NCBI GenBank assembly: GCA_045644745.1 | Contig: JAZRHL010000020.1 | Location: 2,998 to 66,997 of the forward strand | Length of the DNA stretch: 64,000 nt | Reading direction: 5' to 3' | Source of the DNA: Akkermansia sp. | Lineage (GTDB): Bacteria > Verrucomicrobiota > Verrucomicrobiia > Verrucomicrobiales > Akkermansiaceae | Shown here: piece by piece, positions 3,646 through 16,461 of the stretch | Numbering within the stretch: position 1 is the first letter of the stretch | Layout of the letters: each line of letters begins with the position of its first letter | Translations under genes and position numbers: made by a program | The notes under the pieces: generated by a model | Told to the model about the DNA's origin: nothing | Seen by the model: only the letters and a program-made list of their open reading frames with translations | Database searches by the model: none

Positions 3646-3794
3646 AATAACGTAAGGTTGTTAGAGATTACCATTTTATTAGAGCGGACTCAAGTAAAAA
3701 AACTTGGGCGTAAGGCCTCTGATTCTGCGGGGAAAGACGAACCTCCTCGGAAGCTCTCCTTGGCGCGGGGTTCACGCCGGTGTACAACACAGGC

Positions 3795-4310
3795 ATGGGA
3801 TTTACAACTGCCGCCACGATACTGACCACTGCCGCCAGCGTTGCGGGCAAGGCCATGGAGGCCTCTGCCGAGCGCAAACAGGCCCGCGAATACAACGCTG
3901 CCGCCGAAGAACGCCGCCGCCTGGCCGAAAACCAGGCAGGCGCCATCACCCGCACCGCCATGGAAAACCGTAGGCGTGAGCAGCGGAATGCCCGCAGCCA
4001 GGTGGCTACGGCGCGGGCAGATGCCGCAGCCTCCAACCTTATGAGCAGCGGCACCGCCACCGTGCGCGAGACCGACCTCGCCACCCGCCTGGAGGACGAT
4101 ATCAACAACCGCACCAATGCCGCCCTGCAGGAGGCCAATACCCTCCGCAGCCAGGGCGCTTACGATGCGCACGACCTGGAGATGCATGCCCGCCAGTCCC
4201 GCCTGCGCAGCCAGGGAGCCTGGATTGGTGCTGCCGGCGGTATCTTCCGAGGTCTCAGCTCCGTGGCGGAGAACTCAGGCGGTTCAGGTAGTAATGCAGG
4301 GCCAGCTTGA
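3795..4310 (+). CDS. Hypothetical protein. Short hydrophobic N-terminus, long Ala/Arg/Glu/Asn coiled-coil, Gly-rich tail. Reminiscent of phage internal/pilot virion proteins
   Basis: ORF 3780..4310 in the track (GTG). First ATG at 3795 (MGFTTAATILTTAASVAG...). Composition is coherent for a real protein, unlike the two minus-strand shadow ORFs. No family identified by eye. Confidence 0.45.
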   Translation: MGFTTAATILTTAASVAGKAMEASAERKQAREYNAAAEERRRLAENQAGAITRTAMENRRREQRNARSQVATARADAAASNLMSSGTATVRETDLATRLEDDINNRTNAALQEANTLRSQGAYDAHDLEMHARQSRLRSQGAWIGAAGGIFRGLSSVAENSGGSGSNAGPA

Positions 4311-4395
4311 GCACCGAGGTGCGGTCGATGCCGTGCCGTAGGGCAAATTGCTCCAGCCGGAGGAAAAGTGATTCTCCGCAGCGGAAGGTAATCAT
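4255..4395 (-). CDS. Candidate 46-aa ribbon-helix-helix (CopG/Arc/MetJ-like) DNA-binding protein
   Basis: Hand translation: MITFRCGESLFLRLEQFALRHGIDRTSVLKLALHYYLNRLSSPPRS. It shows a beta-strand/helix/helix pattern typical of RHH proteins. It is below the ORF-track length cutoff and overlaps the 3' end of 3795..4310 convergently by 56 nt. Confidence 0.4.
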   Translation of the reverse strand: MITFRCGESLFLRLEQFALRHGIDRTSVLKLALHYYLNRLSSPPRS

Positions 4396-4397
4396 GT

Positions 4398-4432
4398 GAA
4401 GTGAGGGCATATCTGCAATATGCCCTCACTTC
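4398..4432. repeat. Perfect 15-bp inverted repeat with 5-nt loop (GAAGTGAGGGCATAT ctgca ATATGCCCTCACTTC)
   Basis: Read directly. It lies 2 nt upstream of the RHH ORF start and 41 nt downstream of the M16 peptidase stop. No T-run follows on either strand, so an operator is as likely as a terminator. Confidence 0.9.
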
Positions 4433-4473
4433 TGTCTGTTTGCAAGTTATGTTGGATGTGCGGCTGCTAATTC

Positions 4474-6975
4474 TTACTCCGGTCGCACAGAAATCCAGGT
4501 GCGGGTGGCCTGGGGATTCAGCACGGCGGCGAGGAAGCGGTTCATGCCTTCGGGGGTGACGGCGCGGAGGAGGTCAGGCACGCGGTCGTCGTAATCAGCG
4601 CCGAGGCCGAGGAGGGTGTTCACCGCCATGCCGGAGCAGCGCTTGCCGCAGCTCTGCAGGGCCAGCACGCGGCTGGTGAGGGCGGTGGAACGGGCTCGTT
4701 CCAGGGCATCAGCGGGCATACCTTCGGTGGCCAGTCGGTTGAGTGTTTCCTCGAGCACGGTGCGGGCTTCCTGCAGCTGCTCAGGGGCTGTGCCCAGGTA
4801 GAAGTAGAGGCAGCCTGCATCCACCCCCAGCAGGGATGAGGCGGCGGCATAATAGGCCAGACCCCGCTTCTCGCGGATTTCATCGAAGAGAGGGCCTGCC
4901 ATGTCGCGGCACCATTCCTCGAAAAGCAGCTGGGTGGGTGTGGAGTCGGAAAGGGCATTGGAGGCAGGCACGGCCACGGCGAGCACGGCCTGTTCCTTAT
5001 CCAGAATCTCCACAGCATCCGCAGGCATCTGGGCAGGGGTGTCGGTGCGCACGGCGGGTATGCCGGCGGGCATGCTGCCGAAGAGTTTTTCTGCCTGCTC
5101 CAGCACGGCGGCGGGGTCGATATCGCCCGCGACGGCCAGCACGGCATTCTGCGCGCAGACCAGGCGGGCGTGCTGCGCCAGCAGGGCCTCGCGGGTGAAG
5201 CTCTGCACGCTTTCCACATAGCCATCTCGGTGGTTGCCATAGGAAACAGGGCCGAAGCACAGGCGGCGCAGTCGGCGGAAGGCGAGGGCGGCGGGGTCCT
5301 CCTCGGCATCCATGATATCGGCAATCATGGCGTGTTTCTCATTTTCCACCGTTTCAGCGGGCAGGGTGGGGTACAGCGTGGCATCTGCCAGCAGGCCGAG
5401 CAGGGCAGGCAGGTCTGCTGCCAGGCCGCGGATGGAGAGGTTGAAGGTGTTGTTGCCGGCGGCGCTGGAAATCGAGCCTCCCAGGTTTTCCACCTCGCTG
5501 GCCAGTTGTTCGGCGCTGCGGGTGGTGGTGCCCTTGAGCATGCACTCAGTGAGCAGGGAATTGATGCCGGCGGTCTCGGCGGTTTCGGTCTGGCTGCCTG
5601 CGCCGAACACGATTTCGGCATAGGCCATGGGCACGCGCTTATCCACTCGGGTGACCACGCGCAGACCGTTGGGCAGGGTATGCACCACGGGGGCATTGGT
5701 ATCGGCAGCACTGCTGGCGGCATCGGCATCGGTATTGCTGCCGGTGGGGTCCACGCTCACTTCCACCAGACGGTCGGGGGTAAAGTAAGTGGCAGCGGCG
5801 GTGGCGATATCCTTGTTGCGCACATGGGAGAGGGCCGCATCCCATTCCTCCATGCTGTTCGGGTTGCGGCTCAGGTGCCAGGACATGCCCAGCACATTGG
5901 CCACGCCCTGCACGGTGGAAAGCCCGCGCAGACGCCCCGTGAGCATCTGGCGGCGGGTGCGGCGTCGCGCTTCATCGAAATCTGCCTGCGGCAGGGTGGC
6001 CATGAATTCCAGCACGGCGTCGCGCAGGGTGTCGCGCTTGTCGCGATCCACATCGAACTCCAGCACCAGGGCGCCTTCTCCCGTGCGGTCGGGCACGGGC
6101 ATGACGGATACATCGTGCGCGAGCCCCAGCTCATCGTGGAACTTCTTGTACAACCACGCCGAGCGGCCATCGCCCAGAATGGAGCCAAGCATGGAAATGG
6201 CGGCGGCATCCGGGTGGTTGGAGGACGGGGTGCGCCAGGCCAGCATGAGGGTGCTGGTGGGCTGGGCAAACTCGCAGCGGTGGGTGCGCGGCCCCCACTG
6301 GCGGGGCTCGGCGGCAGGTGTGGCCTGCCTGGCCGGGCGGGCAGGCACGCTGCCGAACTCTGCTTCCACGGCTTCGAAGAGCTCCTGCGGGTTCACATCG
6401 CCCGCTACGCACAGGAACATGTTGCCCGGCACATAGCGGTCGCGGTGGTAGGCCACCATGTCCTCGTAGCTCAGGGCATCGAACCCGCTGCGGGTGCCGA
6501 TGACCGGCTGGCGGCGAGGGGCCACCTTGAACAGCGTGCGGATGAGCGCGTGGTAGGCGGTGTCCTGCGGGTCGTCATTGTACATGCCCATTTCGCGGCG
6601 GATGACATCGCGCTCGCGTTCCCATTCATCGCGGGGGAAGGCGGGGTGCAGGGTGAGCTGGCTGAGCAGGTGCAGGAACTCGCGCCAGTGGGCGGCGGGG
6701 CCGTCGATGTAGAACACGGTGCGGTCGGTGCTGGTGTAGGCATTCCACATGCCGCCCAGTTCGGGCACACGCTCGTTGAGCTGGCGGGCGTTCAGTTCCG
6801 CGGTCCCCTTGAATACCATGTGCTCCAGCAGGTGCGAAAGCCCTGCGCCCAGGTGCTCGCCCTCGTGAATGGAGCCGGTTTCAATCCAGACTTGGAGCGA
6901 AACCAGCGGAAAGGCGTTCTGCGGAGCCACTACTGTGGTAAAACCATTGGAACAAACGTGAACCTCGTGCTGCAT
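4474..6975 (-). CDS. M16 (pitrilysin/insulinase) family zinc peptidase, duplicated two-unit architecture
   Basis: Inverted zincin motif HLLEHMVFKGT near the N-terminus. There is a second M16-like half. Start moved to ATG 6975 (MQHEVHVCSNGF...) because a -35/-10 promoter sits just upstream. The track ORF extends to 7257. Confidence 0.9.
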   Translation of the reverse strand: MQHEVHVCSNGFTTVVAPQNAFPLVSLQVWIETGSIHEGEHLGAGLSHLLEHMVFKGTAELNARQLNERVPELGGMWNAYTSTDRTVFYIDGPAAHWREFLHLLSQLTLHPAFPRDEWERERDVIRREMGMYNDDPQDTAYHALIRTLFKVAPRRQPVIGTRSGFDALSYEDMVAYHRDRYVPGNMFLCVAGDVNPQELFEAVEAEFGSVPARPARQATPAAEPRQWGPRTHRCEFAQPTSTLMLAWRTPSSNHPDAAAISMLGSILGDGRSAWLYKKFHDELGLAHDVSVMPVPDRTGEGALVLEFDVDRDKRDTLRDAVLEFMATLPQADFDEARRRTRRQMLTGRLRGLSTVQGVANVLGMSWHLSRNPNSMEEWDAALSHVRNKDIATAAATYFTPDRLVEVSVDPTGSNTDADAASSAADTNAPVVHTLPNGLRVVTRVDKRVPMAYAEIVFGAGSQTETAETAGINSLLTECMLKGTTTRSAEQLASEVENLGGSISSAAGNNTFNLSIRGLAADLPALLGLLADATLYPTLPAETVENEKHAMIADIMDAEEDPAALAFRRLRRLCFGPVSYGNHRDGYVESVQSFTREALLAQHARLVCAQNAVLAVAGDIDPAAVLEQAEKLFGSMPAGIPAVRTDTPAQMPADAVEILDKEQAVLAVAVPASNALSDSTPTQLLFEEWCRDMAGPLFDEIREKRGLAYYAAASSLLGVDAGCLYFYLGTAPEQLQEARTVLEETLNRLATEGMPADALERARSTALTSRVLALQSCGKRCSGMAVNTLLGLGADYDDRVPDLLRAVTPEGMNRFLAAVLNPQATRTWISVRPE

Positions 6976-11064: not shown

Positions 11065-12473
<1,409 letters not shown>

Positions 12474-12477
<4 letters not shown>

Positions 12478-12519
12478 CGATTGACAATTGACGATTGACA
12501 ATTGACGATTGACAATTGG
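12474..12519 (+). repeat. Tandem heptamer array (TTGACGA TTGACAA) x3 plus TTGG. Left arm of an inverted repeat
   Basis: Read directly. The array starts on the ahcY stop codon (tTGA) and ends 1 nt before the four-helix-bundle ATG. Confidence 0.95.
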
Positions 12520-12520
12520 T

Positions 12521-12907
12521 ATGGATGCGCGGGAATTGCGAGAACGGACACTTGAGTTCGGGCTGCGTATCGTTCGTCTGTGTCAATATCTGCAGGGACA
12601 TCCTGTGGCCGAGGTGCTGGGCAAGCAGTTGCTGCGATGCGGCACCTCGGTCGGGGCTAATTACCGGGCTGCTAGTCTGGCCAAGAGTTCTGCGGATTTC
12701 GTCTCGAAAATCAAGATATGCGAGGAAGAAGCAGATGAATCCATCTATTGGCTGGAGCTGCTGATGCGTTCTGGTGAGGTGGATGCCGCTCGCCTGAAGC
12801 CCCTGCAGGATGAGGCTGCAGAATTGCGCAATATCATGTCCGCTAGTGCTATCACAGCTCGTAAGAACTTAAAACAAGAGAAACATAAATCCACCAATGG
12901 TCAATAG
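12521..12907 (+). CDS. Four-helix-bundle protein (23S rRNA intervening-sequence protein / Avd family, TIGR02436/PF05635-like)
   Basis: MDARELRERTLEFGLRIV...GKQLLRCGTSVGANYRAA...ADFVSKIKICEEEADESIYWLELL matches the family signature (xSxGANIxEA ... ES.YWLxL). The track start 12509 is a TTG inside the repeat. Confidence 0.85.
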   Translation: MDARELRERTLEFGLRIVRLCQYLQGHPVAEVLGKQLLRCGTSVGANYRAASLAKSSADFVSKIKICEEEADESIYWLELLMRSGEVDAARLKPLQDEAAELRNIMSASAITARKNLKQEKHKSTNGQ

Positions 12908-12928
12908 TCAATTGTCATTAGTCAATGC
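12894..12928 (+). repeat. Inverted copy of the heptamer array (GTCAATA GTCAATT GTCATTA GTCAATG). Right arm
   Basis: The reverse complement of 12894..12926 matches 12487..12519 at 29 of 33 positions (aligned by hand). It contains the four-helix-bundle stop (12905..12907) and the folC ATG (12897). Confidence 0.9.
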
Positions 12929-14114
12929 CCTTGATTGGTTATACTCGACGCAGGCTTTCGGCATCAAGCTGGGGCTGGAGGGAGTGACCCGTCTGCTTTC
13001 GGCCTGCGGTGTGCTGTATCCCCGGGCGCAGGTCATTCACGTGGCCGGCACGAATGGCAAGGGCAGCACCTGCGCTTTCTGCGAGAGTGTGGCTCGCGCT
13101 GCCGGGTACAAGACAGGCTTGTTCACGTCGCCGCATCTGGTGGAGTTCAGTGAGCGTATCCGCGTGAACGGGGTGAATATCCCGGATGCGGATGCCGCAC
13201 GCCTGATTGCCAAGGTGCGCGAGCTGGTGCAGAGCTGGGACCCGTGCCCGACTTTCTTTGAACTGGTGCTGGCCGTGGCCATGCTCTGGTTTGCTGAGCA
13301 GGAGGTGGAGCTCATTGTGCTCGAAACCGGCATGGGCGGCCGACTGGATGCCACCAATGCCGTGCCCAAGGACGTGGCTGTGCTTGCCCCCATAGGACTC
13401 GACCACACCCAGTATCTGGGCGAAACGCTTTACGAGGTGGCAGGTGAGAAAGCCGCCATTCTTTCCTGGCACCGCCCGGCGGTGTGTGCTCCGCAGGAGC
13501 CGGAAGCCATGCGGGCTATTCATGAGGCAGCACAGCACATGGATACCTACTGCCGCGTGATTACAACCGAATGCGCCCAGCCGCTGGGGCTGAAGGGCGA
13601 ACACCAGCGCCGCAATGCTGCGCTGGCCCTCGCTGCTCTGCGCGCCCTGCCGCATTTCCTCTGCAGCGCCGAGGAAGAAGCCCGCGGCCTGGCTCAGGTA
13701 AGCTGGCCGGGACGTTTCGAGGAAGTGCAGCCCGGTGTCATCATGGACGGCGCGCATAACCCGCACGCCATGCAGGTGCTTACCCGCACCTGGCGCGAGG
13801 CCTTCGGAGAGCAGAAAGCCCGCTGCATCTATGCCGGCTCGGCAGACAAGGCACTGGATGAGGTGCTGGAGCTGCTTGCCCCCATCGTAGGTGAGTGGGT
13901 GCTGCCCCCGGTGCAGTCTCCCCGTATCCTTCCCCCCGCCGAAATGGCAGCCAAGGTGCAGGCGGTGTCGGCTGCTCCCGTTTCCACTCCCGACACGCTG
14001 GCCGAATGCCTGGCCGATATGCCCGCCGGCACCCTCATCTGCGGTTCTTTCTTCCTCCTCGGCGAGGCTAAGGCTGTTCTTCGGAGCGCTGATTACCGCA
14101 GTACGGTGCAGTGA
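12897..14114 (+). CDS. folC: Bifunctional folylpolyglutamate synthase / dihydrofolate synthase
   Basis: ALDWLYSTQAFGIKLGLEGV..., P-loop HVAGTNGKGST, Mur-ligase fold pattern. The only in-frame start is ATG 12897, inside the repeat. Confidence 0.9.
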   Translation: MVNSQLSLVNALDWLYSTQAFGIKLGLEGVTRLLSACGVLYPRAQVIHVAGTNGKGSTCAFCESVARAAGYKTGLFTSPHLVEFSERIRVNGVNIPDADAARLIAKVRELVQSWDPCPTFFELVLAVAMLWFAEQEVELIVLETGMGGRLDATNAVPKDVAVLAPIGLDHTQYLGETLYEVAGEKAAILSWHRPAVCAPQEPEAMRAIHEAAQHMDTYCRVITTECAQPLGLKGEHQRRNAALALAALRALPHFLCSAEEEARGLAQVSWPGRFEEVQPGVIMDGAHNPHAMQVLTRTWREAFGEQKARCIYAGSADKALDEVLELLAPIVGEWVLPPVQSPRILPPAEMAAKVQAVSAAPVSTPDTLAECLADMPAGTLICGSFFLLGEAKAVLRSADYRSTVQ

Positions 14115-14202
14115 TTTCACTTTTCACATGCGCGCAGCGCATGTTTTCATTTTTCATACGAACGCGCAGCGTGAGTTTTCATGAAAAAAAGCTGCGAGCA
14201 TG
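14115..14202. repeat. Mosaic of TTTTCA(C/T) motifs and short GC hairpins with a palindromic centre TTTTCATGAAAA (14176..14187). The first hairpin plus T-run is the likely folC terminator
   Basis: CATGCGC-gca-GCGCATG (14127..14143) is followed by TTTTCATTTTT. The motif orientation flips at 14176..14187. Confidence 0.75.
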
Positions 14203-14272
14203 AAATGAAAACGCCCGCATTCGCAGGCGTGTGAAAAATGAAGGGTGAAAACGCGCCTTGTGGCGCGTGAGA
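14203..14272. repeat. 70-bp direct repeat, copy 1 (two hairpins, each followed on the minus strand by TTTTCA)
   Basis: AAATGAAAACGCCCGCATTCGCAGGCGTGTGAAAAATGAAGGGTGAAAACGCGCCTTGTGGCGCGTGAGA. It differs from copy 2 at 4 of 70 positions (hand alignment). Confidence 0.9.
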
Positions 14273-14277
14273 AAACA

Positions 14278-14622
14278 TCAAGCATTATCTTTTGCTGTTT
14301 TGATGGAGCGAATCAACATGAATCTGATTCGTCGGCAAGTATTCAGTAGTGTTTCGGCTTTATCCGGCTCCAATGTCTGAGTATTTGCCATCAGTTCAAG
14401 CCAGTATTCGCTTTCATTGCTTTCTTTGAGAGCAATTTGTAATTTGGCGATGAAATCGGCTCGGCTGCTGGCGTATTGTGCTTCGCGGATGTTCGCTCCG
14501 ATACTTGTAGATGACCGGAGTAACTGGTTTTTGAGTACTCCTCGTTTTTCTACCGTATCATGAGTAAGAACAGTCGCTATCGCGAAGTTCATGGATTCCG
14601 TCATTAACTGATTCTCAGACAC
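14278..14622 (-). CDS. Four-helix-bundle protein (23S rRNA IVS protein / Avd family), second diverged copy
   Basis: ...LKNQLLRSSTSIGANIREAQYASSRADFIAKLQIALKESNESEYWLELM, the same signature as 12521..12907. The start is uncertain: GTG 14622 lies 7 nt after TCGACA-17-TACAAT, and ATG 14604 is the alternative. Confidence 0.85.
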   Translation of the reverse strand: MSENQLMTESMNFAIATVLTHDTVEKRGVLKNQLLRSSTSIGANIREAQYASSRADFIAKLQIALKESNESEYWLELMANTQTLEPDKAETLLNTCRRIRFMLIRSIKTAKDNA

Positions 14623-14679
14623 AATCTTGATTGTAACGGATTGAGATGATGATGTCGATGTAAAAATGAGAATAAAAGA

Positions 14680-14749
14680 AAATGAAAACGCCCGCTTTCG
14701 CGGGCGTGTGAAAAATGAAGGATGAAAACGCGCCTTGCGGCGCGTGAGA
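14680..14749. repeat. 70-bp direct repeat, copy 2. Doubles as the rubrerythrin terminator module
   Basis: AAATGAAAACGCCCGCTTTCGCGGGCGTGTGAAAAATGAAGGATGAAAACGCGCCTTGCGGCGCGTGAGA. It ends 2 nt from the rbr stop codon. The period between copies is 477 bp. Confidence 0.9.
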
Positions 14750-14751
14750 CC

Positions 14752-15294
14752 TTAGATCTCGATGTACTTGGCCTTGGGGAAGTTGCAGAGCGGGCAGCGT
14801 TCCGGCTCGGTGCCTTCGGCAAAGGTGTCGCCGCAGAGCGGGCACACGTAGTACTTGGAGGGCAGGTCGAGCTTCTCGCCGGCTTCGAGCTGGGCAAGAG
14901 CCTTGCTGTACAGGTCGGCGTGTTCCTTCTCGGCCTCGTTGGCCCAGGTGAAGCTGCGCACGGCGTCGGAGATTTCCTCCTCCTGAGCCTTGGCAATCAT
15001 GGGGGGATACATCTCGGTGAACTCGTAGGTCTCGCCGGCGATGGCGGCCTTCAGGTTCTCAATAGTGTTGCCCACCTCGATGTGCATCTCGATATCGATG
15101 GGAGCCTGACCCAGTTTCACGAGCACTTTGTTGTGGTTGGTGGCGTGAATGCGCTCGGCGCGGCTGGCGGCGGCAAAGAGCTTTTCGATGAGCGGGTAAC
15201 CCTCCTGGGCTGCGCGGGTGGCGTAGGCAGCGTACTTGGCGCTGGCGGTGCTTTCGCCGATGATGGCGGTCTTGAGATTGTCGATTGTTGTCAT
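14752..15294 (-). CDS. rbr: Rubrerythrin family protein
   Basis: Ferritin-like diiron N-domain (E..H motifs: SRAERIHATNH, ETYEFTEMYP) plus a C-terminal rubredoxin-like CPLCG...CPLC. Confidence 0.9.
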   Translation of the reverse strand: MTTIDNLKTAIIGESTASAKYAAYATRAAQEGYPLIEKLFAAASRAERIHATNHNKVLVKLGQAPIDIEMHIEVGNTIENLKAAIAGETYEFTEMYPPMIAKAQEEEISDAVRSFTWANEAEKEHADLYSKALAQLEAGEKLDLPSKYYVCPLCGDTFAEGTEPERCPLCNFPKAKYIEI

Positions 15295-15300
15295 GGCCGT

Positions 15301-15328
15301 AGTTTATCTTATTTTAGAATAATTACAA
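15301..15328 (-). promoter_or_regulatory. Promoter TTGTAA-16-TAAACT, 6 nt before the rbr ATG. Overlapped by a Per-box-like palindrome TTAGAATAATTACAA (15314..15328)
   Basis: Reverse complements read directly. The palindrome matches the Fur/PerR-type 7-1-7 consensus TTATAATnATTATAA at 12 of 15 positions. Confidence 0.45.
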
Positions 15329-15366
15329 GAAAAATGTGTGAAAAATTGAAAAATAGTTATTTTTTC

Positions 15367-16461
15367 TTACAGTGCTTCAATGATGGCATCGCCCATGCCG
15401 CGGGTGCCAACACGGATTTCGCCTTCGGCGCCGGTGGCGAGGTCGCCGGTGCGGTAGCCGGCAGCGATGACCTTGCGCACAGCGGTGTCAACGGCATCGG
15501 CAGCTGCGGTTTCCTTGCAGGTGTAGCGCAGGAGCATGCCCATGGAAAGAATCTGAGCGATGGGGTTGGCGATGCCCTTGCCGGCGATGTCGGGTGCGGA
15601 GCCGCCGGAGGGTTCGTAGAGGCCGAAGAAGGTGTTGGAACCGTGGCTGAGGGAGGCGCTGGGGAGCATGCCGAGGGAGCCGCAGACGATGGCCATTTCA
15701 TCGGTCAGGATATCGCCGAAGGTGTTTTCGGTGACCATCACGTCGAACTGCTTCGGATTGCGCACCAGCTGCATGGCGGCGTTGTCCACATACATGTGGG
15801 TGAGTTCCACATCGGGGTATTCGGGGGCAATGGCGTTCATCACATCGCGCCACATGACCGAGGAAGCCAGTACATTGGCCTTATCCACGCTGCAGAGCTT
15901 CTTGTTGCGACCGCGGGCGGCCTCGAAAGCCACGCGGGCGATGCGTTCCACCTCGCTCTTCTTGTAGATGAGCGTATCCAGGCCGATAACCTCGCCATCG
16001 CGTTCGCCGTAGAACTTGGGCTCGCCGAAGTACATGCCGCCGGTGAGCCCACGCACACAGAGAATGTCGAAACCGCCGGGGATGAGGGAGTTCTTCACGG
16101 GCGATGCGTCCACCAGCTCGGGCAGGCAGATGCCGGGGCGCAGGTTGGCGAAGAGGGAGAAATGCTTGCGGAGAGGGAGCAGAGCGCCGCGCTCGGGGCG
16201 TTCATCAGGGGGCAGGGAATCCCACTTGGGGCCACCCACGGAACCGAAGAGAATGGCATCTGCCGCTTCGCAGGCAGCCAGAGTCTCTGCGGGCAGAGCC
16301 TTGCCGCAGTTGTCGATACCGGCGCCGCCCACGAAACATTCGGTGCGCTCAGTCTTGAATCCGAACTTTTCTTCCACGGCGTCGAGCACGCGGAGTGCCT
16401 CTGCCATAACCTCCGGGCCGATACCATCGCCCGCCAGGACTGCAATCTTGTAGGTGTTCAT
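15367..16461 (-). CDS. leuB: 3-isopropylmalate dehydrogenase
   Basis: [18 protein letters not shown]..., ...NLRP..., [11 protein letters not shown], and the pattern of the IDH/IMDH family. Confidence 0.95.

What the first reader, a model, noticed from the sequence alone, without database searches (positions are those of the whole stretch)
14115..14751. Second four-helix-bundle cassette flanked by a 70-bp direct repeat made of two terminator hairpins (477-bp period)
The minus-strand four-helix-bundle gene (14278..14622) is bracketed by two 70-nt copies, 14203..14272 and 14680..14749, with 66 of 70 positions identical by hand.

Each copy contains two GC hairpins (ACGCCCGC-nnnn-GCGGGCGT and ACGCGCC-ttgy-GGCGCGT). 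On the minus strand each hairpin is followed by TTTTCA, so each looks like an intrinsic terminator.

Copy 2 starts 2 nt after the rubrerythrin stop and copy 1 starts 5 nt after the four-helix-bundle stop. The gene therefore looks like a unit of (ORF + terminator module) duplicated or inserted immediately behind rbr.

Upstream (14115..14202), the same TGAAAA/TTTTCA-punctuated hairpin grammar continues in the opposite orientation around a perfect palindrome TTTTCATGAAAA. This gives a REP/BIME-like mosaic.

One of the four differences between the copies (A versus G in the first hairpin) restores a perfect stem in copy 2. That hints the stem is under selection.
Basis: seen in the sequence. Interest (0 to 1): 0.65.

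Follow-up and report, generated by a model that had tools for sequence, protein, structure and literature searches.

The report
Hairpin repeat arrays around four-helix-bundle gene
The 70-base repeat is real, but it is half of a larger four-hairpin repeat unit that forms variable arrays around a small, horizontally moving four-helix-bundle gene in animal-gut Akkermansia, and the same kind of unit in other gut bacteria is the orphan "Gut-1" RNA motif, which gives that motif a gene partner for the first time.

Summary
In detail: 14203-14272 and 14680-14749 are 66/70 identical, and each holds two GC hairpins followed by TTTTCA on the minus strand.

The 70-mer (H1+H2) is the forward half of a ~156-nt quasi-palindromic unit, H1 H2 | H3 H4, whose hairpins are punctuated by TTTTCAY / RTGAAAA heptamers.

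- **Variable arrays.** In related Akkermansia the rbr-folC spacer holds 1-4 tandem units, with or without the four-helix-bundle (PF05635) gene.
- **Gain and loss.** Empty alleles equal filled alleles minus the cassette and one repeat.
- **Other cargo and sites.** One strain carries hipBA at this site. H1, or whole units, occur at other loci without this gene.
- **The gene itself.** It has its own promoter, low GC (0.44 against 0.61-0.63) and dN/dS of 0.03-0.06. Its divergence does not track that of rbr.
- **Transcription.** Metatranscriptome contigs fit termination at the modules.
- **Wider family.** In 48 of 67 relatives from other gut bacteria a heptamer-and-hairpin palindrome precedes the gene. 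In 22 of 60 loci scanned, its first arm scores as Rfam Gut-1, an orphan motif.

The window's module does not reach Gut-1's threshold. The general role of the heptamers is unresolved.

The parts
14680..14749 (-). Repeat copy 2 (H1+H2, the 'TTTTCAY arm'). H1 stem-loop is at 14728-14745 and H2 at 14688-14707, each followed by TTTTCA on the minus strand. It lies 2 nt after the rbr stop.
   Evidence: RNA contig depth is high over rbr and 0 over this stretch in 3 of 4 metatranscriptomes
14623..14679 (-). AT-rich cassette leader with the gene's own promoter: -35 TCGACA at 14658-14653 and -10 TACAAT at 14635-14630.
   Evidence: 10 of 12 consensus matches. ATCGACA-N17-TAnAAT is conserved in the homologous cassettes of L018, L028 and L017. 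GC is 0.30.
14278..14622 (-). Four-helix-bundle gene (PF05635, 23S_rRNA_IVP). It is 114 aa from the GTG, or 108 aa from the ATG at 14604.
   Evidence: Pfam E 2e-22; PDB 2rld E 2.8e-25; dN/dS 0.03-0.06; GC 0.44 against 0.61-0.63 in the neighbours; transcribed at low level
14203..14272 (-). Repeat copy 1 (H1+H2). This is the forward half of the one complete unit downstream of the gene. H1 is at 14251-14268 and H2 at 14211-14230.
   Evidence: One RNA contig (X28) ends at 14246, the last base of the TTTTCA tail of H1.
14115..14202 (+). Reverse half of the unit (H3 about 14158-14175, H4 14126-14144), read as terminators of folC on the plus strand. The central palindrome TTTTCATGAAAA is at 14176-14187.
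   Evidence: It is the same part as H3/H4 of the 37 aligned units. Weak Gut-1 match on the minus strand at 14109-14151.
14752..15294 (-). Rubrerythrin gene (context), highly expressed.
12897..14114 (+). folC gene (context), convergent with the four-helix-bundle gene.
12509..12907 (+). A second, 40% identical PF05635 gene between inverted TTGACRA heptamer arrays. It is a related cassette and is also present or absent among relatives.
Evidence: Absent in L010 and L028, present in L002-L005, L015 and L018.

Best explanation
**What the repeat is.** The two 70-nt copies are two instances of the 'TTTTCAY arm' (hairpins H1 and H2) of a ~156-nt quasi-palindromic repeat unit. The unit has four small GC hairpins: H1 and H2 facing one way, H3 and H4 facing the other, each set off by the heptamer TTTTCAY or its complement RTGAAAA. 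Units of this design travel with this subfamily of PF05635 four-helix-bundle genes in many gut bacteria. There, the RTGAAAU arm is what Rfam calls the Gut-1 RNA.

**What happened in this clade.** In animal-gut Akkermansia the unit has multiplied into tandem arrays of variable length on both sides of the gene, and a few copies have reached other loci. The window's allele is a short one: rbr - H1H2 - promoter + gene - H1H2H3H4 - folC. This gives a 70-nt direct repeat with a 477-nt period.

**Steps that are shown**
- The unit and its variable copy number.
- Empty, filled and hipBA-filled alleles of the same spacer.
- Empty alleles that equal filled ones minus the cassette and one repeat.
- Divergence of the gene decoupled from that of rbr (horizontal exchange).
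- Strong purifying selection on the gene.
- Compensatory changes in the stems.

**Steps that are inferred**
- Arrays grow and shrink by unequal recombination or slippage between units.
- The gene is lost, and perhaps gained as a circle, by recombination between flanking units.
- At this locus H1/H2 terminate the rbr and four-helix-bundle transcripts on the minus strand, and H3/H4 terminate folC on the plus strand. The separately promoted foreign gene is thereby insulated from its convergent neighbours.
- The constant heptamer is a specific pairing or recognition element of the family. In this clade it merely doubles as a U-tract.
For: **Repeat and hairpins:**

**Unit and arrays.** BLAST of the module against strain loci shows 1-4 copies with a ~157-nt period on either side of the gene. 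Hairpin maps of about 50 loci are.

**Alleles**
- Empty: L020-L022, L025-L027, L029, L032, L033, L036, L052, L059.
- hipBA-filled: L019.

**Clean indels**
- L028 against L029: rbr dS 0.017, and they differ by the cassette plus one 118-nt repeat, with identical flanks.
- L018/L024 against L025/L026 follow the same logic.

**Decoupled divergence**
- WIN-L002: rbr dS 0.35, gene dS 0.06.
- L028-L010: 0.41 against 0.015.
- WIN-L018: 0.29 against 0.88.

**Foreign composition:** GC 0.44 against 0.61-0.63. **Purifying selection:** dN/dS 0.03-0.06.

**Stems.** In 37 distinct units 94% of cells are paired and 7 pairs show changes on both sides. 0 of 500 shuffles reach the observed score, and slid controls give 15-65% paired. 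G.U against A.C counts are 15:1 in H2 (minus-strand sense) and 6:13 in H4.

**RNA**
- rbr contig depth reaches about 400.
- Depth is 0 across 14614-14715 in 3 of 4 metatranscriptomes.
- The gene is covered at depth 3-11.
- One contig ends at the H1 tail (14246).

**Elsewhere in the genomes.** The H1 pattern occurs at 22 loci in 15 Akkermansia assemblies, 12 of them without a four-helix-bundle gene within the stretch held (up to 8 kb). A whole unit lies between divergent genes in L058, and units flank a Schlafen/AlbA_2 gene in L046.

**Family-wide.** 48/67 relatives have the upstream heptamer-and-hairpin palindrome, against 3/69 and 3/72 in controls. Gut-1 scores 50.8-89.7 bits (threshold 50) in 22 of 60 loci; 18 of these have a hit on the gene's strand 35-226 nt upstream of the gene start (most at 100-230 nt), and in the other four the hit lies upstream on the opposite strand (L088, and a second hit in L081), further upstream (L079, L101).

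**Paralogous cassettes in Akkermansia have the same build**
- L017/L060: inverted three-hairpin arms, which are absent together with the gene in L002, WIN and L018.
- L064: opposite orientation.
- L062: gene embedded in 135-nt tandem arrays.
Against: - **No direct 3'-end mapping.** RNA evidence comes from assembled contigs, whose depth is a poor measure. One contig (X26) runs from rbr through the module into the gene, which could be read-through or DNA carry-over.
- **Weak U-tracts.** They are only four U long.
- **Termination cannot be the general role.** In other taxa the punctuating heptamers are not U-rich (GTTGAGGA, ATGAAGC, ATGAATT, GCTAAATT).
- **Direction unresolved.** Whether each indel is an excision or an insertion is not known. 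No recombinase or transposase was identified.
- **Not a Gut-1 member.** The window's module scores only 26 bits against Gut-1.
- **Local peculiarity.** Only a minority (about 6 of 67) of distant relatives have direct repeats on both sides of the gene, so that part of the build is specific to this clade.
Confidence: 0.6

Rival explanations
1. The heptamers are the specific recognition sites of the encoded four-helix-bundle protein, an Avd-like protein whose closest solved relative is deposited as five chains. Gene plus arms would form a self-propagating element, the free-living form of the ORF-bearing rRNA intervening sequence. ORF-less units would be its non-autonomous derivatives, in the way that REPINs relate to RAYT genes.
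For: - Within each locus the heptamer is constant while the hairpin stems vary freely.
- Different protein lineages carry different heptamers: TTGACRA for the 40%-identical cassette 1, TTTTCAY for cassettes 2 and 3, TTCTTCAC for L062, and ATTTCAC, CTTCAC, ATATCAC, GTTGAGGA and others elsewhere.
- The arms come and go together with the gene at apaG-leuB.
- ORF-less units occur alone (L058, L020) and in the original Gut-1 alignment.
- The gene is under strong purifying selection.
- The closest solved structure, 2rld, has five chains.
Against: - No binding data exist, and no catalytic motif is known in PF05635.
- Co-variation of heptamer and protein is also what plain co-inheritance would give.
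- Units also flank hipBA and a Schlafen-like gene.
- Copy number per genome appears low.
- No target-site duplication is seen.
Confidence: 0.25
2. REP/BIME-type extragenic palindromes are spread in trans by a REP-associated (RAYT/IS200-like) transposase. The four-helix-bundle gene is just one of several passengers caught in a recombination hot spot.
For: - The elements are short imperfect palindromes in intergenic DNA, clustered in alternating orientation, with strain-variable copy number.
- Solo H1 copies sit after unrelated genes.
- Other cargo genes are found between units.
Against: - Copy number is low. There are no other copies in the 64-kb window, and the full 70-mer occurs only at this locus in four metagenomes.
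- No GTAG-type head is present, and no transposase is seen in any locus fetched.
- This rival does not explain why a heptamer-and-hairpin palindrome precedes 72% of related PF05635 genes in other taxa.
Confidence: 0.15
3. IVS-like RNA processing. The complementary arms (RTGAAAA against TTTTCAY) pair in read-through transcripts into a long interrupted stem. RNase III then cuts this stem and releases the cassette RNA from the host transcripts.
For: - GTGAAAT and ATTTCAC are exact complements.
- The minimum-free-energy folds of the window unit and of L110 use these long-range heptamer pairings, with z-scores of -4.9 and -6.2.
- PF05635 genes are the ORFs of rRNA intervening sequences that RNase III excises (PMC4990558).
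- Earlier notes e1-4218358 and e1-3126259 reach the same conclusion.
Against: - In most relatives both arms lie upstream of the gene's own promoter and do not enclose the ORF.
- Seven-base-pair rungs between four-way junctions are poor RNase III substrates.
- In the window the promoter lies downstream of the upstream arm, so the gene's own mRNA lacks it.
Confidence: 0.12
4. One reading: an ordinary rbr terminator was duplicated when an 'ORF + terminator' unit was inserted or tandemly duplicated behind rbr.
For: - The 70-nt copies flank the gene exactly.
- In species B the filled allele differs from the empty one by the cassette plus one repeat.
Against: - Empty alleles already carry tandem modules (L021, L022).
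- Arrays of up to 3-4 units occur on either side.
- The repeat flanking the gene differs between species (H1H2 against H2s-H3-H4).
- The same unit occurs at unrelated loci.
Confidence: 0.05

Closest known systems
Gut-1 RNA motif (Rfam RF01706; Weinberg et al. 2010, PMC2864571)
   Same: - The grammar matches: small GC hairpins separated by (G)UGAAAU.
- Relatives of the window's gene (45-58% identical) carry bona fide Gut-1 matches (50.8-89.7 bits), most of them 100-230 nt upstream on the gene's strand, followed by the inverse AUUUCAC arm.
- The flanks of the original alignment show the inverse arm too.
   Different: - The window's module scores 26.1 bits against a threshold of 50.
- It has two hairpins per arm instead of three, and uses UGAAAA rather than UGAAAU.
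- It is amplified in tandem on both sides of the gene.
- Gut-1 was described as an orphan non-coding RNA from human gut metagenomes, with no gene association.
BIMEs / REP clusters of enterobacteria (from general knowledge)
   Same: - Short imperfect palindromes in intergenic DNA at gene ends.
- Clustered in alternating orientation.
- Copy number varies between strains.
- Terminator or mRNA-end functions.
   Different: - Low copy number per genome.
- No GTAG head.
- No known transposase partner.
- A constant heptamer separates variable stems.
- Tied to a PF05635 gene family.
ORF-bearing intervening sequence of 23S rRNA (Coxiella burnetii, Leptospira; PMC4990558)
   Same: - Encodes a PF05635 ('S23p') protein.
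- A small selfish-looking insert with complementary arms.
- Sporadic distribution.
   Different: - Not in an rRNA gene.
- The gene has its own promoter and is under strong purifying selection.
- The arms are heptamer-punctuated hairpins, arranged here as direct tandem arrays.
REPIN-RAYT systems (from general knowledge)
   Same: A single protein gene flanked by members of a palindromic doublet repeat family that also occurs without the gene.
   Different: The protein is a four-helix bundle with no known catalytic activity, and the repeat populations are tiny.
DGR accessory protein Avd (PMC10053308)
   Same: Homologous four-helix-bundle fold. Avd binds a reverse transcriptase and RNA.
   Different: There is no reverse transcriptase and no template/variable repeat here. 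The neighbours are ahcY, folC, rbr and leuB.

Membership tests
Intrinsic (factor-independent) terminator | GC-rich stem-loop directly followed by a U-tract on the transcribed strand | tested here: met
   The consensus scan finds 14707-14688(-), 14230-14211(-) and 14126-14144(+). H1 has a 7-bp stem plus TTTTCA. The U-tract is short (4 U).
Intrinsic (factor-independent) terminator | Transcripts end at the site | tested here: inconclusive
   Contig depth falls from rbr to 0 over the module in 3 of 4 metatranscriptomes. One contig ends at 14246. One contig reads through. There is no 3'-end mapping.
REP / BIME | Short imperfect palindromes, extragenic, clustered in alternating orientation with variable copy number | tested here: met
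REP / BIME | High copy number dispersed over the genome | tested here: not met
   There is no other copy in the 64-kb window. The full 70-mer occurs only at this locus, and H1 at about 1-3 further loci, in four metagenomes. There are 1-4 contigs per assembly with exact H1. No whole-genome census was possible.
REP / BIME | Cognate RAYT transposase and conserved GTAG-type head | not testable with these tools
No transposase gene appears in the loci fetched, and no GTAG head appears in the units.
Gut-1 RNA (RF01706) | Score at or above Rfam's gathering threshold (50 bits) | tested here: not met
   26.1, 20.3 and 20.0 bits in the window. No hit in 14 Akkermansia loci or in L060, L062 and L064. Relatives from other taxa score 50.8-89.7.
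Gut-1 RNA (RF01706) | Hairpins separated by UGAAA(U) spacers | tested here: met
   The alignment to the model shows the same spacers around both hairpins. The middle hairpin is missing.
ORF-bearing 23S rRNA intervening sequence | PF05635 ORF | tested here: met
   E 2e-22
ORF-bearing 23S rRNA intervening sequence | Inserted in a 23S rRNA helix and excised by RNase III | tested here: not met
   It lies between rbr and folC. No rRNA match was found at 12300-15400. Cleavage could not be tested.
Integron gene cassette / attC | Promoterless ORF plus a single attC hairpin with core sites, next to an integrase | tested here: not met
   The gene has its own promoter. The repeats are multi-hairpin units. 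There is no integrase among the neighbours. L003 has a phage-type integrase gene upstream of rbr, but only in that strain.
MITE | Terminal inverted repeats, target-site duplication, many dispersed non-coding copies | tested here: inconclusive
   The unit is quasi-palindromic, and the apaG-leuB cassette has inverted arms. No target-site duplication is seen. Few copies are known.
DGR (Avd accessory gene) | Reverse transcriptase with template and variable repeats nearby | tested here: not met
   The ORFs within 3 kb are ahcY, a PF05635 gene, folC, rbr and leuB.

The most novel reading that the evidence does not exclude
The PF05635 gene and its heptamer-punctuated hairpin arms form a previously undescribed kind of small genetic element. 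The four-helix-bundle protein recognises its own heptamer repeats. Gut-1 RNA is one arm of the element. ORF-less units are its non-autonomous offspring. The ORF-bearing intervening sequences of rRNA are copies of the same element that landed in rRNA genes.
Probability: 0.25. Interest if true: 0.85.

Novelty: new variant of a known kind. Interest (0 to 1): 0.62.

Why it matters
**Two orphans are connected.**
- PF05635 'four helix bundle' proteins are among the commonest unexplained small genes of bacteria. They include the ORF of rRNA intervening sequences and are relatives of the DGR protein Avd.
- Gut-1 has sat in Rfam since 2010 as a structured RNA with no organism, no neighbour and no function.

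The two belong together. The repeat design (a constant heptamer with variable hairpins, in mirror-image arms) is conserved across taxa while the heptamer itself changes. This gives concrete experiments: test whether the protein binds the heptamer-and-hairpin nucleic acid, measure termination by the arms, and look for RNase III processing.

**For Akkermansia.** The finding identifies a strain-variable hot spot behind rbr that carries different accessory genes. It also identifies a small repeat family that will break short-read assemblies and could serve for strain typing.

Tried and rejected
- **Exact look-up of the 114-aa protein.** Nothing was found, because gene callers use the 108-aa ATG form.
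- **Integron/attC reading.** Rejected: the gene has its own promoter, there is no integrase, and the repeats are multi-hairpin.
- **DGR reading.** Rejected: no reverse transcriptase nearby.
- **Concerted evolution of the two flanking copies.** Identity between the upstream and downstream modules of one locus (mean 61.9/70) is no higher than between loci (60.2-63.5/70). There is no special relation between the window's two copies.
- **A 507-nt cyclic contig in run X1** (14288-14702, then back to 14226-14317, which is 477+30). It could be a tandem duplicate, an excised circle or a de Bruijn-graph artefact. No contig links the module to rbr in that run. I could not resolve it.
- **L024 and L025.** These are filled and empty alleles from one sample, but they are 95.6% identical strains, not parent and product.
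- **Local-alignment test for flanking repeats in 67 distant relatives.** It found only about 6 direct and 10 inverted cases, because the conserved part is the short heptamer. The heptamer-count test was the informative one.
- **Other Rfam hits** (TB9Cs1H3, OmrA-B, RsmY, suhB). All are below threshold and are single-hairpin look-alikes.
Full report
**1.

The repeat finder gives one 70-nt direct repeat, 14203-14272 and 14680-14749, 66/70 identical, 477 nt apart. Each copy has two GC hairpins: H1, ACGCGCC-nnnn-GGCGCGT, and H2, ACGCCCGC-nnnn-GCGGGCGT. On the minus strand each is followed by TTTTCA.

The hairpin-with-TGAAAAC pattern occurs three times in the 64-kb window, all here, against none in shuffles. 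Copy 2 begins 2 nt after the rubrerythrin stop. Copy 1 begins 5 nt after the stop of the 114-aa ORF at 14278-14622(-).

That ORF is a PF05635 (23S_rRNA_IVP, 'four helix bundle') protein with E 2e-22. Its closest solved structure is 2rld.

14115-14202 holds two further hairpins of the same style, facing the other way (H4 at 14126-14144, H3 at about 14158-14175). They lie around the palindrome TTTTCATGAAAA.

**2. The organism and its strains**

Close homologues of the ORF are labelled Akkermansia sp.. The stretch occurs in bovine, pig and other gut metagenomes.

I therefore collected the same locus from other strains through exact protein look-ups. I also ran one DNA-pattern scan of species-representative genomes and one protein-guided scan of metagenome contigs.

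**3. The real repeat unit**

BLAST of the 70-mer against these loci shows that it is repeated 1-4 times on either side of the gene, with a period of about 157 nt. Reading the sequences shows why.

The unit is H1-H2-centre-H3-H4, about 156 nt. H1 and H2 are each followed by (G)TTTTCAY. H3 and H4 are each preceded by RTGAAAA. It is a quasi-palindrome whose linkers are complementary while its stems differ.

The window's 14115-14272 is one such unit. 14680-14749 is a lone forward half.

Hairpin maps of about 50 loci give these alleles of the rbr-folC spacer:

- **Empty (no gene):**
  - H1H2-H1H2H3H4 in L021 and L022.
  - One more unit in L020.
  - Two whole units in L052.
  - An extra H2 plus two whole units in L059.
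  - Shorter forms in L025-L027.
  - In a sister species, H0-H1-H2s-H3-H4 in L029, L033 and L036, and H0'-H2s-H3-H4 (no H1) in L032.
- **Filled, short:** the window, L001 and L006-L009.
- **Filled, long:** L002 and L004, with three modules before the gene and three whole units after it. Also L043, L049, L051 and L053-L055.
- **Filled, sister species:** L010-L015 and L028, where the repeat flanking the gene is H2s-H3-H4 (118 nt), not H1H2.
- **Filled with something else:** hipBA in L019.

The 70-nt repeat was therefore not made by the insertion. Empty alleles already have two modules in tandem.

**4. Gain, loss and exchange of the gene**

L028 (filled) and L029 (empty) have almost identical rbr genes (dS 0.017). 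They differ by exactly the cassette plus one 118-nt repeat. L018/L024 against L025/L026 show the same relation in the window's species. This is the form expected from recombination between the flanking direct repeats. The direction of each event is not known.

The gene's divergence is decoupled from that of rbr:

| Pair | rbr dS | gene dS |
|---|---|---|
| WIN-L002 | 0.35 | 0.06 |
| L028-L010 | 0.41 | 0.015 |
| WIN-L018 | 0.29 | 0.88 |

The ORF has GC 0.44 against 0.61 and 0.63 for rbr and folC. It is under strong purifying selection, with dN/dS 0.03-0.06.

It carries its own promoter, TCGACA-17-TACAAT. That promoter is conserved in homologous cassettes.

**5. Are the hairpins functional?**

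In 37 distinct units (alignment A2) the four stems are paired in 94% of cells. Seven pairs have changes on both sides. Examples are A-U to G-C in 15 units at one H3 pair, and U-A to C-G in 10 units at one H4 pair.

No shuffle of 500 reaches the observed covariation score. Slid controls pair in 15-65% of cells.

Wobble pairs are asymmetric in the sense expected for terminators:

- H2 has 15 G.U on the rbr-sense strand against 1 on the other.
- H4 has 6 against 13.

These counts are of cells, not of independent events.

The metatranscriptome contigs show the following:

- rbr reaches depths of up to about 400.
- In three of four runs there is nothing across 14614-14715.
- The four-helix-bundle ORF is covered at depth 3-11.
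- One contig stops at 14246, the last base of the H1 tail.
- One contig runs from rbr into the ORF.

This fits termination with some read-through, but it is not 3'-end mapping.

**6. Not confined to this locus, and not confined to this gene**

In four metagenomes the full 70-mer is found only at the two sites. A 34-nt H1 piece, however, sits on other contigs of the same depth.

The exact H1 pattern hits 22 loci in 15 Akkermansia assemblies, with up to four contigs per assembly. Twelve loci have no PF05635 gene within the stretch held, up to 8 kb. The other contexts are these:

- Solo H1 copies lie after unrelated genes, sometimes behind a canonical terminator.
- A whole unit lies between divergently transcribed genes, where no terminator is needed (L058).
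- An array lies behind another gene (L049).
- Units flank a Schlafen/AlbA_2-HATPase gene at a site that is differently occupied in the window (L046).

**7. Other four-helix-bundle cassettes in the clade have the same build**

- A 74%-identical paralogue sits between apaG and leuB in some genomes (L017, L060, L061). It has inverted arms of three TTTTCAC-punctuated hairpins. Arms and gene are absent together from L002, the window and L018, with no target duplication.
- L064 has another paralogue in the same spacer in the opposite orientation. Its arms include an H2-type hairpin.
- L062 has a 55%-identical gene embedded in 135-nt tandem arrays of hairpins punctuated by TTCTTCAC. There are 3.5 copies before it and at least 3.2 after it.
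- The window's other PF05635 gene (12509-12907) lies between inverted TTGACRA arrays. It is also present or absent among relatives.

**8. The wider family and Gut-1**

An Rfam scan of the window gave a sub-threshold match of the module to Gut-1 (26 bits, threshold 50). The grammar is the same: hairpins separated by UGAAA.

I fetched 80 metagenome loci encoding 45-58% identical relatives. The counts are:

| Test | Result |
|---|---|
| Loci with 330 nt of upstream sequence that have three or more copies of one short motif just before the promoter, plus two or more inverse copies further up, each separated by a small hairpin | 48 of 67 |
| Same test on control regions | 3/69 and 3/72 |
| Loci scanned in which the first arm is a bona fide Gut-1 match (50.8-89.7 bits) | 22 of 60 |
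| Of those 22, loci with a hit on the gene's strand 35-226 nt upstream of the gene start (most at 100-230 nt); in the other four the hit is on the opposite strand (L088) or further upstream (L079, L101), and L112 has a same-strand hit 142 nt upstream plus an opposite-strand one | 18-19 |
| Loci scanned with a tRNA gene just upstream | about 26 of 60 |

The motif is mostly ATTTCAC, but also CTTCAC, ATATCAC and others.

The original Gut-1 alignment shows the inverse arm in its flanks. Its authors reported only that the motif is found in human-gut sequences. No paper in the library links Gut-1 to PF05635.

In some taxa the motif is not U-rich (GTTGAGGA, ATGAAGC, ATGAATT, GCTAAATT). Termination therefore cannot be the general reason for the design.

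The arms are complementary through the heptamers, and predicted folds use those pairings, with z-scores of -4.9 and -6.2.

**9. Reading**

The window shows a short allele of a locus where a horizontally exchanged, separately promoted four-helix-bundle gene sits inside an array of its family's heptamer-and-hairpin units.

I hold the following as most likely (about 0.6):

- At this locus the arms act as two-way terminators that insulate the insert.
- Recombination between units drives both the changes in array length and the gain and loss of the gene.

The deeper question is why this gene family always brings a constant heptamer with variable hairpins. It is open. Recognition by the encoded protein is the most interesting candidate (about 0.25).

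Earlier notes of this scan on other PF05635 genes between inverted heptamer arrays (e1-4218358, e1-3126259, e1-3948213) agree with the general pattern. I used them as leads only.

**10. Limits**

- There is no whole-genome census.
- RNA evidence comes from assembled contigs only.
- The loci were chosen through the proteins or through the H1 pattern, which biases what is seen.
- The cyclic contig in run X1 is unresolved.

Noticed in passing
L083, L087, L079, L080, L101, L108, L115, L120 and others (metagenome loci): In many non-Akkermansia relatives the order is tRNA gene(s) - terminator - Gut-1 arm - inverse arm - promoter - PF05635 gene. About 26 of 60 loci have a tRNA gene directly upstream on the same strand.
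   Followed up: partly
L019:2966-4425: One strain carries a hipBA toxin-antitoxin pair in place of the four-helix-bundle gene in the rbr-folC spacer. It starts right after H2 and runs up to the folC stop.
   Followed up: partly
L046:4050-6100; corresponds to window ~3646-4480: In another Akkermansia species whole H1-H4 units flank a Schlafen/AlbA_2 + HATPase_c_4 gene. The window holds a different ~0.8-kb insert at this site, so this is a second accessory-gene hot spot.
   Followed up: partly
L041, L044, L056 (downstream of 5S rRNA / tRNA): Solo H1 is followed by a CCGCGCGGCAATGCCGCGC hairpin and a run of TCGTAAA heptamers (AAATTCGTAAATCGTAAATCCAAAATCGTAAATGG). This is another small repeat class of these genomes.
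   Followed up: no
L038, L045, L047, L057: A repeated hairpin, GGCACGGGACTTnAGTCCCG, occurs one to three times next to solo H1 copies. L057 also has TCGTCAA/TTGTCAA heptamers like those around the window's first cassette.
   Followed up: no
L005:985-1060, L003:2340-2385, L046:6040-6080: In some units H3 is replaced by a run of (GATGAAA)n, 3-4 copies. The heptamer itself can therefore expand like a microsatellite.
   Followed up: no
window 14288-14702 joined back to 14226-14317 in run X1: A 507-nt contig closes on itself (477 + 30), at about the same depth as the flanking folC contig. It may be a tandem duplicate, a circle or an assembly artefact.
   Followed up: partly
L053 (JAFWZN010000066.1): A 1.5-kb contig filed under a 'Clostridia bacterium' MAG carries the Akkermansia rbr - units - four-helix-bundle gene - units - folC arrangement. 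It is probably mis-binned.
   Followed up: no
L003:1-698: In one strain a phage-type integrase gene and a hexapeptide transferase gene replace leuB upstream of rbr. The left flank of the locus is therefore also variable.
   Followed up: no
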